Positions 10,060 to 59,500 are shown, counted from the stretch's first letter. The stretch: 64,000 bases of DNA from Octopus sinensis (GCF_006345805.1 NC_042997.1:93372001-93436000); one strand, 5' to 3'. Notes: generated by a model not told the origin, from the letters alone. A program made the numbers and translations.

Positions 10060-11194
10060 GTAAGGAATTCATTGAATATTTGTTACATAATCAGTTTAAA
10101 ACTGACTTAAGATATTAAGATGAAAAGTAATGTAGGAGTTTGAACATAGGTAAGCTGTAAATGTTTGTTCCTTCTCGAGCCATGCCTGGCTCATTAGGGC
10201 CGGTTTCCTGGTTTCTTTGGCATATAGGTTCCCCACCTGGATGGGATGCCGGTCCGTTGCAGGTGAGCCACAAGATGCAGGAGGAAAGAGTGAGAGAAAG
10301 TTGTGGCAAAAGAGTCAGCAGAAGTTCGTCATTACCTTCCGGAGCCATGTGGAGCTTAGGTTTTTCGCTCATAAGCACACACATTGCCCGGTCTGAGACT
10401 CGAAGCTCCAATCCCTCAACCACGAGTCCACTGCTGTAACCACTAGGTGGTGTGCCTCCACAAGCTGTAAATGCAATGAGTTGAGAAAAGTGGGGCTCTA
10501 TGTTTATAGTATGTTAGACTAGGAGTCAAAATGTTGATAGTTCTTATCCTATCTCCAAATAAATGAGAACACTTGATTTATTATGTTTCTCAGTGTGCTT
10601 GTACATATAAGCATAAGAATGCATGTGTGTGTGTGTGTGTGTGCATCTTACTATATCATTCAGTTCATCTCACTGCTTCGCTTATATATCCAAGTGGAAA
10701 ATTTCAAGAAACACTGGCAGTTAATTTAATGGTCCAGTTTCATATGCATAGGTGCAGGAATATCTGTGTGGTGAGAAGTTTGCTTCCATACTTCGTGATT
10801 TCAATTTCAGTATTTCATTCACACTGTGTGGTATCTTGGGAAAATGTTGTATACTATAGCCCGTGGGTGGTTAAAGCCTTATGAGTGAATTTAGAAGATG
10901 GAAACCAAAAAAGTTGTAGTATATACATAGAAACACACAAAAGCCGTTCGATTCACTTCAACATGTAAGTTTAATTTGTCAAAATATTTTCGTCACTATA
11001 AGACCGCGACCTGTGACAAATTAAACTTAAACGTTGAAGTGAATAGAACAGCTTTTGTGTGTTTCTTAAATGGCTTACAAACACCTTCCACGCTGCAATT
11101 GTTTTTGTTCCAGCACACGATCTCAGATCAAATCACTTGCTATGCAAGTACATCTCCGTAATATATATATATATATATATATATATATATATAT

Positions 11195-11845
11195 GAAGAA
11201 TAAAAAGTTTTGAATGGTACAACAATGCACTATAATACATAAAATGGACTATATACATGTTGTAATTTAGTTATCCATAGTCCGATGATATTTCGGAATA
11301 AAATTCCTTCTTCAGATATTCTTTGATGGAGTCGTTGCTATAATCGGTTTTCCAACAGCTTTTCTTTTTTCAGAAGTGTCTCAGCTGTGGTCTCAAGAAG
11401 GTTCTTCCGGGATTCCTCATGAGAAGTGCGTGAGGTTGGCTATGTCTCAATCTCGTGTGTGTTGGTACATCTGTAGTGCTGCTTCTAAATTATGTATTAT
11501 ACATGCAGCTTCTTCTTTTTCCCTTTCTTTTTTTTCTCTTCTTGACAGAAGAGGGAAAGAAAGAAGCTGCACGTATAATACATAACTTAGAAGCAGTGCT
11601 ACGGATGTACCAGCACACTCGAGATTGAGACATAGCCAACCTCACACTTCTCATAAGGAATTCCGGAATGACCTTCATGTGATCACTGCTGAGACACTTC
11701 CAAAAAAAGAAAAACCATTGGAAAACTGATTATAGCAGTGACTTCATCTAAGAATAACTGAAGAAGGAATTTTATTCCGAAATATCAGACTATGGATAAC
11801 TAAATTTCAACATGTATAACCATTCAAAACTTTTTATTCGTTACA
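11195..11845. repeat. About 650-bp fold-back element with hammerhead-like core
   Basis: About 320-bp inverted arms; CTGAAGA-A-GGAAT-TTT-ATTCC-GAAA at 11758-11782 and its mirror at about 11291-11315. Confidence 0.85.
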
Positions 11846-13061
11846 AACCATACAAAATGCTTCAAGCGAACTACAATATTCTCATATATATATATATATT
11901 ATATATATATATATACATACATACATATATATGTATGCATATATATTCTTTTATTCTTTTTTCTTTTACTTGTTTAAGTCATTTGGCTGTGGCTATGCTG
12001 TAACTTAGCGGTTCGGCAAGAAAACCCCAATAGAATAAGTACTAGGCTTACAAAGAATAAGTCCTGGGATCGATTTGTTTGGCTAAAGGCGGTGCTCCAG
12101 CATGGGTGCAGTCAAATTATTGAAACAAATAAAAGAATATATATACATATATATATATATATATATATATATATATATATATATATATATATAGGCTAAA
12201 AAAGGCCCTCAATGTTTGTTTTTTTTGTCCTGTTTTTATTCTTTATGTGTACTGTATTTTTTTTATATTTGTATTTTTATTTTGTATTCGTATTTTTATT
12301 TGTATTTTTATTTGTATTGCTTTTACGTCCTGTTCTTGTCACATTTTTTTCTTTCCTTGTTTTTACCCCTCTGCAAGGGAATTTTATTTAATTCCCTCGC
12401 AGGAAGGATCGGTCCGACGAGTGTGTCCTGTCCTTACCCTCGAAACATGCATGGAGTCGAACCGGGGACAGCTGATGAAGGGGAATGTTCCTTGTGTTGT
12501 TTGTCCTGTGTTCTGTTTTTTCGTTGTTAAAAAAAGTCCGTTCCCTTGTTTTTATGTTTTCGTTTCTCGTTGAGTTCTACGTCTATTTGTGGTATCCTGT
12601 ACTCACATATATATATTTATATATGCATGTATATATACATGTAGATGTAGGTACGTACATATATGTATGTATGCATATATTTTATTTATTACATTATATA
12701 TATATATATTATTCAATAAACACAATACATACACAATAATAGACACAATGCAAGCACAAACCACATGTGATATGATAGGTGGTTTGTGCCTGATGAATAT
12801 GTTTGAGATATTTCTGGACACATAAAAACATGTATTTCGTCTATTAGATAATATTTGTCTCTCACCAGATAGATTACTTTTTTGTTGATTTTACCATCAT
12901 GGAACAGTTCATTAAATATATATATATATATCACAGTTAATTTATTATTTCTATTCCTCTTGAGCTACCTAAGTACCTGTACCTCTGTTTTCTCTCTCTC
13001 CTCAGCCTCTCTCGTTTTTCTCTCTAACTCAATTTCTCTATCTCTCTCTCTCTCTTTTCAG

Positions 13062-13219
13062 ACCTTTCCCAGGATATGATTCTATTGATGATATTTTGGA
13101 CTTGGGGTACAGTTCCCTCCCATTTTCAATCAAGCAAAGTCTATTTTTACAATCTACCTCTCTAAATAGAACTCAGATTGTTTTTAAATTTCTTGTTTCC
13201 CAGATTCAAGCAATTGATG
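13062..13219 (+). CDS. Exon C2 (phase 2-1): PFPGYDSIDDILDLG...QIVFKFLVSQIQAID
   Basis: Long CT tract + ttttcag acceptor, gtaagt donor, 158 nt, phase-compatible with B2 and D2. Confidence 0.85.
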
Positions 13220-57070: not shown

Positions 57071-58573
57071 TAAATAATGTACATAATTCCACATCTCTTA
57101 AATATAGAACTGTATGTTTACAGTACTCCTTTTCATCTTCTACTACTATAACTACAGACATGCTTTTGCAATTTTTTTTATTTATAATTTTTGCTATCTA
57201 AATTTGTTGTTATTTAAGCAACCAGCAAAGTATACATTTTTCAGTTTGAAAACGACTATTTGAAGCTTGTATAAAAATTATCCTCCCAAAAAAGCCATCT
57301 CTACTCATTTTTCAAATATATAATACTGTATATATATATTCACACACATACCTAAATATATATATATATTCACACACATACCTAAATATATATATATATA
57401 TATTGTTGTGGCACTTCGTCAGTTACGACGACGAGGATTCCAGTTGATCCGATCAACTGAACGGTCTGCTCGTGAAATTAATGTGCTAGTGGCTGAGCAC
57501 TCCACAGACACATGTACCCTTAACGTAGTTCTCAGGGAGATTCAGTGTGACACTGAGTGTGACAAGACTGGCCCTTTGAGATATAGGTACACCAGAAACA
57601 GGAAGAAAGAGTGAGAGAAAATTATGGTGAAAGAATACAGAAGGGTTCGCCACCACCTCCTGCTTGAGCCTCGTGGAGCTTTAGGTGTTTTCGTTAAATA
57701 AACACTCACAATGCCGGGTCTGGGGATCAAAACTGTGATCCTATGACTGCCGGTCTGCTACCCTAACCACGGGACCATTGTGCTTCCACATATGTATATA
57801 TATATATATATATATATATATATATAAAAGATGACTATGTAGGAGTAAATTATCCATGCAGGTACTGTAATTGCTCTCAGGGATATTTTAACTAACTGAT
57901 TATGCTGTAAAACTAACTGCTAGATTAAAAGAAAAATTTGAAGATGTACCAGTCTCCATATTCAATAATATATATATATTTATCTGTACTCCATCCCCCT
58001 TTCCCATCCCCCTACTCTTCTCATCCCTCCTGCTCCTCTCGCATCCCCCCTCATAATATCATGACCACCAACTAACACTCCTTTTTTCATTTTCTCTGCC
58101 TCTTTCTTTCTTCTTTCCTCACCTATTCCTTTTCACCATTCTCCTCATTTTAACATACACATCTTTTCTCTCCTCTCTATGTTACACTACCACTACATTC
58201 TCAAAATTTCACTCACTCTTCAAGACACAGCCTTGGCTGTGTTGTCTCATTTTATTTAACATATACATGCTCATACAAGACCTGAATTAGACTCCTCACT
58301 CGTATTATTATTTAAACAACAGTTTAACTATGGTCCTTCCATAGCACTTACATAGCCTTACTTGCCACCTTGGGTCTTCTGGATACAAATATCTCTCATA
58401 TATATATATATATATTTATTCATATATATATATATATTATATATATATATATATATAATATGCACACATAGATAGGTAGATAGACAGACAAACAGACAGA
58501 CAGACAGGCAGGCAGACAGACAGATATATGCTTTCATAAAACACTCTTTTTAAACTGTTTCAATAATTTTCAG

Positions 58574-58776
58574 ATGATCTTTTTGCAAAATCATGAAATG
58601 AATTCTACAATTCCAGTAGACTACCAAGGACTTTTAGCATCTGAAATTCAGTTTCAGACATTACTTACACAGCTGATTGATCATCCTCCAAAATTTATAT
58701 GGGGCGTCAGTATGGATGATTTTGATGATGCATTTATAGGATTTGATGGCAATTTTGTAATCCAATATTTCACCAC
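58574..58776 (+). CDS. Exon B6 (phase 0-2): MIFLQNHEMNSTIPVDYQG...LIDHPPKFIWG...QYFT(T)
   Basis: ttttcag acceptor, gtatgt donor, 203 nt; PPK-x-IW motif shared with B5. Confidence 0.89.
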
Positions 58777-59231
58777 GTATGTAATCTATACTTATATTTG
58801 TCTATGAAAGTCTTATCTATTGCTCTGTATGTCATCTCTGAAACAAGCTGAATAAGTGTATTTTTAAAACATAACAATTTTAGTTATATTTTCTTGCAGA
58901 AATACCATCTTTTAGACAGATTTCTGCTAGAATATGTCACAGTTGCTTGTAGGAAACTTCTGTGATGTGCATTTCTACTGATAAAATGCATATGTGTGTG
59001 TATGTGTGTCAGTGATTTTAAACACACGCACACACACACACACACAAACACACACACACGCACACATACATACATACATACATACTTACACACACATACA
59101 TACATACATACATACATACATACATCATCATTTTTGTTTAGATGTCAAACAATATCTGGAAAGCAATATATATATATTTCGTTTTTGGATTTGGTTTGCA
59201 AGATTCTTTATATGAGTTCGTGTGTTGAAGC

Positions 59232-59500
59232 ATATTCTGTTGTGACTGGGGAGAGTCATTTTCTTTTTGTGCCTTATTCTTTAACACACTCACCAGTAAA
59301 ATTTCCACTTATTTCTTATTTTTATTTTCTAAAATTTTCGTTGCATGTTGCAACCTTTTCAGAGTCAAAACTGTTGAAAAGGTTGCAACACGCAACGAAA
59401 ATTTTAGAAAATAAAAGTAAGAAATAAGTGGAAATTTTACCGGTGAGTGTGTTAAATAAGGCATAAAAAGAAAATGACTCTCCCCAGACACAACAGAATA
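59232..59500. repeat. Fold-back element (single-arm relative at about 8765-8950)
   Basis: About 130-bp near-perfect arms; CTGAAAA-G-GTTGC-loop-GCAAC-GAAA variant core. Confidence 0.85.

What the first reader, a model, noticed from the sequence alone, without database searches (positions are those of the whole stretch)
10930..59500. A family-crossing system of intronic fold-back elements that carry hammerhead ribozyme cores
At least seven inverted-repeat elements with mutually unrelated arm sequences (11195, 14390, 20432, 34044, 53988, 56895, 59232; a partial one at 10930) each contain CTGA-N-(G/A)A, then a stem, then (G/A)AAA, in several cases with a short palindromic stem III and an NUH site. 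In each element the motif reads outward from the hairpin centre. Established: Penelope-like elements carry minimal type I hammerheads in their pLTRs and often insert as inverted pLTR pairs, and non-autonomous retrozymes exist in plants and some animals. Inference: these are non-coding PLE/retrozyme-like remnants from many families, at about one per 8 kb. The inverted geometry places one ribozyme copy on the sense strand in either orientation, while the antisense arm can mask it.
Basis: partly seen in the sequence, partly recalled or inferred. Interest (0 to 1): 0.75.

Follow-up and report, generated by a model that had tools for sequence, protein, structure and literature searches.

The report
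Penelope retrotransposon hairpin ends with hammerheads
These hairpins are back-to-back, worn end pieces of several Penelope-type jumping genes, each end carrying a small hammerhead self-cutting-RNA motif; both halves were likely written in one insertion, so the outward-facing layout is likely a footprint of how these elements insert, a known arrangement and not a host control system.

Summary
All seven listed fold-backs, and 10930, are head-to-head pairs of repeat-family ends whose family form is a complete minimal type I hammerhead. The window copies are mostly decayed.

They are not mainly non-coding retrozymes. Six of seven families run 5' into Penelope-like ORFs (RT and/or GIY-YIG-type endonuclease); 34044 is suggestive only.

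Both arms come from one insertion. 65 of 72 pairs carry the PLE 'tail' on exactly one arm, and 50 of 110 pairs are flanked by a direct repeat of 10 nt or more (control 4%). In 1 Mb of evenly spaced tiles, 16 pairs were head-to-head and none tail-to-tail. The ribozyme always follows its antisense arm and is predicted to be masked, as a by-product. Core decay looks neutral (29 TG, 25 CA).

The arrangement is published (Cervera 2014, Arkhipova 2013, Craig 2021). Less ordinary features:
- family cores covary at positions 3-8 (C-G, U-A, G-C);
- tails reach about 300 nt;
- the 56895 family's end repeat begins with a tRNA-like head, where 29 of 30 copies start.

This scan noted these features before on other DNA (unreviewed). 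One per 8 kb is a local high, about three times the genome sample.

The parts
10929..11165 (.). Head-to-head pair, family with G3-C8 hammerhead core; left arm 10929-11014 (-), right arm 11014-11165 (+) with ~58-nt tail; first core half lost in this copy; family has a fixed 5' end and no ORF was found
11203..11882 (.). Head-to-head pair; cores at 11315 (-) and 11758 (+) have all core letters, stem I only 2 bp; ~45-nt tail on the right arm; family runs 5' into an RT + GIY-YIG ORF
14390..15004 (.). Head-to-head pair; cores 14497 (-) and 14631 (+), both G12>A; family has a long stem II and an 8-nt palindromic stem III; ~300-nt tail on the right arm ending in (TA)n; family has a ~1.5-kb AT-rich 3' region and then the end of an endonuclease-like ORF
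20432..20885 (.). Head-to-head pair in (TA)n; cores 20559 (-) and 20606 (+), both G12>A; ~160-nt tail on the right arm; family runs 5' into the end of an endonuclease-like ORF
33745..34018 (.). Unlisted head-to-head pair nested in the left arm of the 34044 element; arms are cut 3' of the family's hammerhead; tail on the left arm; family forms ~340-354-nt head-to-tail partial tandems and no ORF was found (retrozyme-like)
33670..34265 (.). Head-to-head pair (34044), old and decayed; cores 34092 (-) with G12>A and ~34131 (+) with C3>U; left arm interrupted by the 33745-34018 insertion; link to an ORF suggestive only
53988..54673 (.). Head-to-head pair; right arm holds the whole motif (core 54264, second core half 54362-54365, predicted cut after 54373); left arm 53988-54161 stops inside loop II; family runs 5' into an ORF with RT-like and endonuclease-like parts and a CxC-X5-C linker (Hydra-like)
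56893..57113 (.). Head-to-head pair; core 56984 (+) has all core letters with decayed stems, left arm C3>U; ~30-nt tail on the right arm; family is the end repeat of a Poseidon-type coding element whose repeat begins with a tRNA-like head (head absent from this truncated copy)
56880..56892 (+). Left copy of a perfect 13-nt target-site duplication around the 56895 pair
57114..57126 (+). Right copy of the 13-nt target-site duplication
59176..59501 (.). Head-to-head pair in (TA)n; family core U3-A8; right arm 59374 (+) intact (predicted cut after 59404), left arm 59362 (-) U3>C; ~60-nt tail on the left arm; same family as a 4.8-kb head-to-head pair of ORF-bearing arms (L211)
13064..20375 (+). Four exons of the host gene (13064-13218, 17887-18019, 18877-19088, 20140-20375), joined at GT..AG in contigs of two runs (one contig 21 kb); one open frame; protein not identified

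Best explanation
Each fold-back is a head-to-head pair of 5'-truncated end pieces of one Penelope-like retrotransposon (PLE) family, whose end repeat carries a minimal type I hammerhead, and both arms were likely made in a single insertion by reverse transcription from staggered nicks on the two DNA strands. Shown: family identity, hammerhead fold of the family form, ORF linkage for six of seven families, orientation, one tail per pair, a duplication around the whole pair. Inferred: the element's protein nicks AT-rich DNA on both strands about 10-13 nt apart and starts cDNA at two different sites near the RNA's 3' part, one giving the short end and one the tailed end. Both cDNAs stop early and are joined at their truncation points. 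Because each cDNA starts at an outer end, the ribozyme must read outward. In a host transcript of either strand it is made after its own antisense copy and is predicted to be locked in the long duplex; it also lacks a same-strand partner for the dimer that these motifs are thought to need. The copies then decay neutrally. The ribozyme likely served the parent element's RNA processing, not the host gene.
For: Family majority lines give a full core plus stem I, stem II and a palindromic stem III in nine families, though stem I is only 2 bp in the 11195 family. The 3-8 pair covaries between families: C-G in seven, U-A in one (32 of 35 copies), G-C in one (30 of 35). In 1 Mb of tiles a strict descriptor gave 17 hits, 12 with a Watson-Crick 3-8 pair; three shuffles gave 7, 2 and 3 hits with 1, 2 and 0 paired. 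ORF links: 11195 to RVT_1 (E 5e-9) and GIY-YIG (E 4e-6, 1e-5); 56895 to two near-full ORFs with RVT_1 (E 1e-7) that end ~33 nt before the end repeat; 59232 to a 4.8-kb head-to-head ORF pair; 53988, 20432 and 14390 to mutually similar endonuclease-type ORF ends. Orientation: 16 head-to-head, 0 tail-to-tail in the tiles. Tail on exactly one arm in 65 of 72 simple pairs of four families (none in 6, both in 1; solo copies 23 of 47 tailed; P 3e-13 against one half). Flanking direct repeat scoring >=10 in 50 of 110 pairs against 3.9% in shuffled flanks. The tailed arm reaches further 5' in 33 pairs, less far in 29, and equally in 27 of 89, so in 29 pairs neither arm is contained in the other. In vitro, an anole Poseidon protein cuts and extends both strands and starts at two internal sites that bracket the tail (PMC11167929). 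CpG decay at C11.1-G12: 29 TG against 25 CA over six families.
Against: No ORF was found for 10930 or 33769, and only a weak, low-complexity link for 34044 (local scores 55 and 41 against shuffle maxima 34 and 29 in 2 of 6 copies tested). The ORF pieces of 59232, 53988, 20432 and 14390 have no Pfam hit above cut-off and are read from motifs. Four tail-to-tail neighbours occur in complex loci. 60 of 110 pairs show no scoreable duplication (many lie in microsatellites), and about five of the 50 are simple repeats. Family samples are the best hits to the window's arms and lean towards them. Rfam finds no hammerhead. Three of four single motifs folded alone are no more stable than shuffles. Cleavage and insertion chemistry were not tested.
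Confidence: 0.85

Rival explanations
1. Same PLE origin, other mechanism: one cDNA folds back and copies itself (or an antisense RNA self-primes, as Arkhipova et al. 2013 proposed), and the spacer between the arms is later inverted by recombination or by hairpin opening.
For: Many junctions are near-perfect palindromes with no spacer. Arms within a pair are slightly more alike than arms of different pairs in all seven families tested (e.g. 0.948 against 0.914). PMC3846280, Discussion.
Against: A self-copy must lie within the first arm, yet in 29 of 89 pairs the tailed arm is the shorter one at its 5' end; this needs an added inversion step in about half of the asymmetric pairs. In vitro both strands are extended.
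Confidence: 0.2
2. The elements are non-coding retrozyme- or SINE-like passengers mobilised in trans.
For: The 10930 family has a fixed 5' end ~20 nt before stem I, and no ORF turned up in 30 loci. The 33769 family forms ~340-354-nt head-to-tail partial tandems in 4 of 24 loci. 29 of 30 arms of the 56895 family that reach the tRNA-like head start within 11 nt of it.
Against: Six of the seven listed families continue into PLE ORFs. The tRNA-like head itself lies ~33 nt behind the ORF's stop in two near-full elements. No long tandem arrays were seen.
Confidence: 0.1
3. The host keeps these hairpins as a regulatory system: masked ribozymes that could cut pre-mRNA, or double-stranded RNA for editing.
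For: At least 14390 lies in an intron of a spliced gene. The window holds about three times the sampled density. Long duplexes are predicted.
Against: 9 of 14 arms have lost a core letter or a core half. Decay at G12 is symmetric with the harmless change, 25 against 29. The adjoining 40 kb has ordinary density. The same layout occurs all over the genome.
Confidence: 0.04
4. They are MITE-like DNA-transposon hairpins and the motifs are chance.
For: Long terminal inverted arms and AT-rich targets; 31 of 53 sampled fold-backs could not be tied to a hammerhead family.
Against: Variable 5' truncation, a one-sided tail, retroelement ORFs upstream, motif counts far above shuffles.
Confidence: 0.01

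Closest known systems
Minimal hammerheads of metazoan PLEs (Cervera and De la Pena 2014, PMC4209133; parts 1-2 of 4 read)
   Same: Type I minimal motif, extra base after A9, palindromic stem III, many unrelated families per genome, U3-A8 variant, and motif pairs 100-700 bp apart on opposite strands in Schistosoma.
   Different: No cephalopod data in the parts read. A family-wide G3-C8 core and loop/stem II regions of 55-90 nt are not described there.
EN+ Penelope insertions with inverted pLTR and tail (Arkhipova et al. 2013, PMC3846280, passages and Discussion; Craig et al. 2021, PMC8557442, passages and Hydra section)
   Same: [quoted passage not shown]
   Different: Here counted over 72-110 pairs. 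Tails range from ~30 to ~300 nt (30-40 bp in print), and the duplications read 10-13 nt.
Poseidon element PAc of Anolis (Frangieh et al. 2024, PMC11167929; parts 1-2 of 4 read)
   Same: Cuts and extends both strands, AT-rich targets, two internal start sites that define the tail, hammerhead at the pLTR-ORF junction.
   Different: PAc has no tRNA-like head in the parts read; the paper does not count one tail per inverted pair.
Non-LTR retrozymes (Cervera and De la Pena 2020, PMC7229834, passages; Li et al. 2026, 10.64898/2026.07.22.740005, part 1 of 5)
   Same: Type I hammerhead and PLE kinship; the unlisted 33769 family has a ~350-nt non-coding tandem unit.
   Different: Retrozymes are tandem arrays with canonical ribozymes and circular RNAs; the listed elements are dispersed inverted pairs of coding-element ends.
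Schistosome Sm-alpha/Sj-alpha SINE-like repeats (seen second-hand in PMC6765202, passages)
   Same: A promoter followed by a hammerhead in a short repeat.
   Different: In the 56895 family the tRNA-like head is part of the end repeat of a coding PLE.

Membership tests
EN+ Penelope-like element | RT plus C-terminal GIY-YIG ORF directly 5' of the end repeat | tested here: met
   Pfam-backed for 11195 (RT and GIY-YIG) and 56895 (RT); by motifs and mutual similarity for 59232, 53988, 20432, 14390
EN+ Penelope-like element | Same, for 34044, 10930 and 33769 | tested here: inconclusive
   34044 weak low-complexity link; none found for 10930 and 33769 in 30 and 24 loci of about 3 kb
EN+ Penelope-like element | Minimal type I hammerhead in the end repeat | tested here: met
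   Family majority lines and copy counts, e.g. all core letters in 53 of 60, 26 of 35, 23 of 29, 17 of 29, 18 of 31 and 14 of 18 copies of six families
EN+ Penelope-like element | Inverted 5'-truncated copy joined head-to-head | tested here: met
   16 head-to-head, 0 tail-to-tail in 1 Mb
EN+ Penelope-like element | Tail at one end only | tested here: met
   65 of 72 pairs by motif; 89 of 100 by end position in seven families
EN+ Penelope-like element | End repeat and tail continue into the ORF start (partial tandem) | tested here: met
   56895 family only: L021, L210, L385-L389
EN+ Penelope-like element | Clade by RT phylogeny (Poseidon, Neptune, Nematis, Hydra) | not tested
   Clade names rest on linker motifs compared with PMC8557442 and on recall
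Hammerhead ribozyme | Self-cleavage after the NUH triplet | not testable with these tools
   Needs an in vitro assay
Hammerhead ribozyme (Rfam families) | Score against the Rfam hammerhead models | tested here: not met
   No hit at E<=10 in the window or in one locus stretch, none at E<=0.5 in ten loci
Non-LTR retrozyme | Non-coding tandem units, each with a hammerhead | tested here: not met
   Six listed families are ends of coding elements; only 33769 shows partial tandems
Non-LTR retrozyme | Monomeric circular RNA | not testable with these tools
   Only contigs were on offer
tRNA-derived SINE (56895 family) | A and B boxes at tRNA spacing at a fixed 5' end | tested here: met
   Boxes and anticodon-loop letters read by eye at tRNA spacing; 29 of 30 arms start within 11 nt of the head; ARAGORN and Rfam give no credible tRNA call
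tRNA-derived SINE (56895 family) | Separate non-coding family, head absent from the coding partner | tested here: not met
   Head lies ~33 nt after the ORF stop in L385 and L386
tRNA-derived SINE (56895 family) | Transcription by RNA polymerase III | not testable with these tools
   Needs 5' mapping or Pol III occupancy
MITE / DNA transposon | Fixed symmetric termini and constant length | tested here: not met
   Ends are asymmetric and centres vary from copy to copy

The most novel reading that the evidence does not exclude
A coding Poseidon-type retrotransposon carries a tRNA-derived RNA polymerase III promoter inside its own end repeat and so spawns thousands of SINE-like, hammerhead-bearing copies of its tip, a SINE born inside its partner. 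The one-tail-per-pair rule across seven families is an in-genome readout of obligatory two-strand, two-start-site insertion. One family also uses a natural G3-C8 catalytic core.
Probability: 0.5. Interest if true: 0.6.

Novelty: new member of a known kind. Interest (0 to 1): 0.36.

Why it matters
As a 'system' it is ordinary PLE debris, worth annotating correctly. The sample implies roughly 40,000 such pairs for these nine families (16 per Mb) and about 30,000 strictly intact motifs (12 per Mb) in this genome; both are extrapolated from 1 Mb.

Its value is mechanistic. How PLEs make inverted insertions is an open question, and thousands of short pairs with countable tails, duplications and junctions give a genome-scale test of the two-start-site chemistry seen in vitro.

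If the tRNA-like head drives Pol III transcription, it would show a route to SINE-like elements that bypasses LINEs.

Tried and rejected
- Rfam hammerhead and tRNA models: nothing relevant. ARAGORN found no tRNA at default settings, and only inconsistent calls at a lowered threshold.
- My first reading of the 56895 family as a stand-alone tRNA SINE was rejected.
- Selection for ribozyme-killing changes: no excess.
- Expression: no RNA holder listed on record; the two runs used for splice joints are guessed to be RNA.
- RNA editing: A>G and T>C differences were as common in the two other runs as in the RNA-guess runs and come from paralogous copies, so they are uninformative.
- Empty sites in related organisms: contigs were too fragmented. 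No read data were obtained for the elements beyond 21 kb.
- Host gene identity: no Pfam hit above cut-off and no credible PDB hit; the protein atlas was not available.
- A relaxed descriptor caught only 8 of 105 sampled inverted repeats, all outward. Classing by similarity gave 18 outward, 4 inward on weak AT-rich matches, and 31 unclassed of 53.
- Pairwise BLASTP between two endonuclease pieces was not significant.
- The masking script stopped before the sixth element.
- Lunse et al. 2017 (PMC5785218) is not held; only its title was seen.
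Full report
Setting. The window lies in a 2.72-Gb AT-rich animal genome; earlier scan notes call it an octopus. A large plus-strand gene crosses it. Contigs of two runs guessed to be RNA join four exons at GT..AG, one contig being 21 kb long, and the two other runs do not show these joints. 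The four exons give one open frame with no Pfam or PDB identification.

Observation. A type I minimal-hammerhead descriptor gave 8 hits at score 11 or more, 7 inside hairpins, against 0.25 in shuffles. Rfam sees none. Read arm by arm, 5 of 14 arms keep all core letters, 5 carry G12>A, 3 have a changed position 3, and one stops before the second core half.

Families. Each arm is a dispersed repeat with 83 to 2088 first-look candidates, lower bounds; 24-30 best loci per family were aligned. Majority lines restore what the window copies lost: G12, a stem I of 3-7 bp (2 bp in 11195), stem II, and a palindromic stem III of up to 8 nt. The 3-8 pair is C-G in seven families, U-A in 59232 (32 of 35 copies) and G-C in 10930 (30 of 35). 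In 100 evenly spaced 10-kb tiles a strict descriptor blind to the 3-8 letters gave 17 hits, 12 of them paired; three shuffles gave 7, 2 and 3 hits. U3-A8 is published (PMC4209133; PMC3088659, passages). G3-C8 appeared only as a laboratory rescue mutant in what I read (PMC11167929; search). Lunse et al. 2017 was not available, and the supplements of Craig et al. 2021 and repeat libraries were not seen; they may already hold these families.

Coding partners. 11195 copies run into RVT_1 and GIY-YIG. A 59232 locus is a 4.8-kb head-to-head pair of ORF-bearing arms, the same layout on a larger scale. 53988, 20432 and 14390 run into endonuclease-type ORF ends that resemble one another; the CxC-X5-C linker in the 53988 family fits the Hydra clade as described, without a tree. 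For 56895, the tail runs into an ORF start, and two of five fetched loci are near-full elements with RT and endonuclease regions. 34044 has only a weak link. 10930 has a fixed 5' end and no ORF found. The unlisted 33769 family forms ~350-nt partial tandems with no ORF found. These last two are the real candidates for non-coding passengers.

One event, outward by construction. In the tiles, these nine families gave 16 head-to-head and 0 tail-to-tail pairs; four tail-to-tail neighbours occur in complex loci among the searched copies. Arm 3' ends fall into a short and a long class, about 30-60 nt apart in five families, about 160 in 20432 and about 300 in 14390. Exactly one arm is tailed in 65 of 72 simple pairs scored by motif, whereas 23 of 47 solo copies are tailed; loci with more than one arm per strand were left out. 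A direct repeat scoring 10 or more flanks the whole pair in 50 of 110 cases, about five of them simple repeats, against 3.9% for shuffled flanks. At 56895 it is a perfect 13-mer. The tailed arm is longer at its 5' end in 33 pairs, shorter in 29, and equal in 27, which a plain self-copying cDNA cannot give without a later inversion. This matches the in vitro behaviour of anole Poseidon, which cuts and extends both strands from two internal start sites. The mechanism itself is inferred.

Masking and selection. In this layout the ribozyme arm is always transcribed after its antisense arm. Forcing stem II costs 20-66 kcal/mol in the five elements computed. The two copies lie on opposite strands and cannot form the intramolecular dimer thought to be needed (PMC4209133). 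Decay at the C11.1-G12 CpG is 29 TG to 25 CA, so no excess of the inactivating change. The window's 11 fold-backs exceed the 3.6 expected, but the adjoining 40 kb holds 3. Nothing points to a host function.

The tRNA-like head. In the 56895 family a ~75-nt segment with A and B boxes at tRNA spacing (read by eye; ARAGORN and Rfam give no credible call) precedes an (AAT)n tract and the hammerhead. It lies ~33 nt behind the ORF stop in the near-full elements, so it is not a separate SINE. Yet 29 of 30 arms that reach it begin within 11 nt of it, which suggests a Pol III start or a strong stop for reverse transcription. One sampled copy joins ORF to repeat without the head. I found no such element in print. 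Earlier unreviewed scan notes describe it and were split between the two readings. The window's own copy is cut short of the head.

Comparison and verdict. Opposite-strand pairs of minimal hammerheads 100-700 bp apart, head-to-head inverted copies and a tail on one end are all in print. A 2026 octopus repeat annotation lists Penelope families (PMC13282606, part 1 of 3). Literature searches. The finding is a real set of new members of a known kind, with useful counts and two unusual family traits. Interest 0.36.

Noticed in passing
window 13940-14383: An unlisted fold-back with a tRNA-like segment at its centre and no hammerhead seen. The left arm runs through a tail-like stretch into a second tRNA-like head (Rfam tRNA E=4.5 at 13947-14003). 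The family has at least 134 candidates, 73-82% alike. It may be a non-coding, tRNA-headed element with PLE-style insertion.
   Followed up: partly
window 33745-34018; L263, L267, L268, L276: Retrozyme-like family with a ~350-nt unit. Its hammerhead has a C-A mismatch where the 10.1-11.1 pair is expected. This copy is nested in the 34044 element.
   Followed up: partly
window 10929-11882: Two pairs of different families sit side by side, separated by a (TA)n tract.
   Followed up: no
window 1825-2079, 40074-40370, 53612-53870; L218:7701-7988: Exon-like frames of the host gene repeat a ~70-residue unit with a W..C..C pattern; the protein may exceed 6000 residues. It recalls the outer domains of ABCA transporters (recalled, untested).
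   Followed up: partly
window 54847-56497: Tc1/mariner element with 235-nt terminal inverted repeats at 95% and a transposase split by one stop (HTH_Tnp_Tc3_2, DDE_3).
   Followed up: partly
window 35989-37452: 232-nt inverted arms at 98% around a 94-nt tandem duplication, next to a Helitron-like fragment.
   Followed up: no
window 23141-26442, 40948-43107, 60850-62295: Non-LTR retrotransposon remnants (RVT_1, zf-RVT), two of them beside (AGAT)n or (TTA)n tracts.
   Followed up: no
L008, L013, L014, L025, L028: A second element is repeatedly inserted in the (AAT)n tract of the 56895 family.
   Followed up: no
L043:701, L178:1283, L020:2229, L131:885, L052:2743 and others: More hammerhead families beyond the nine studied (18 clusters among 120 strict hits), several with U3-A8.
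   Followed up: no
window 53988-54161; L179, L174, L159: In the 53988 family the short end falls inside or just past the ribozyme, and the long end several hundred bases further on (4 pairs).
   Followed up: partly
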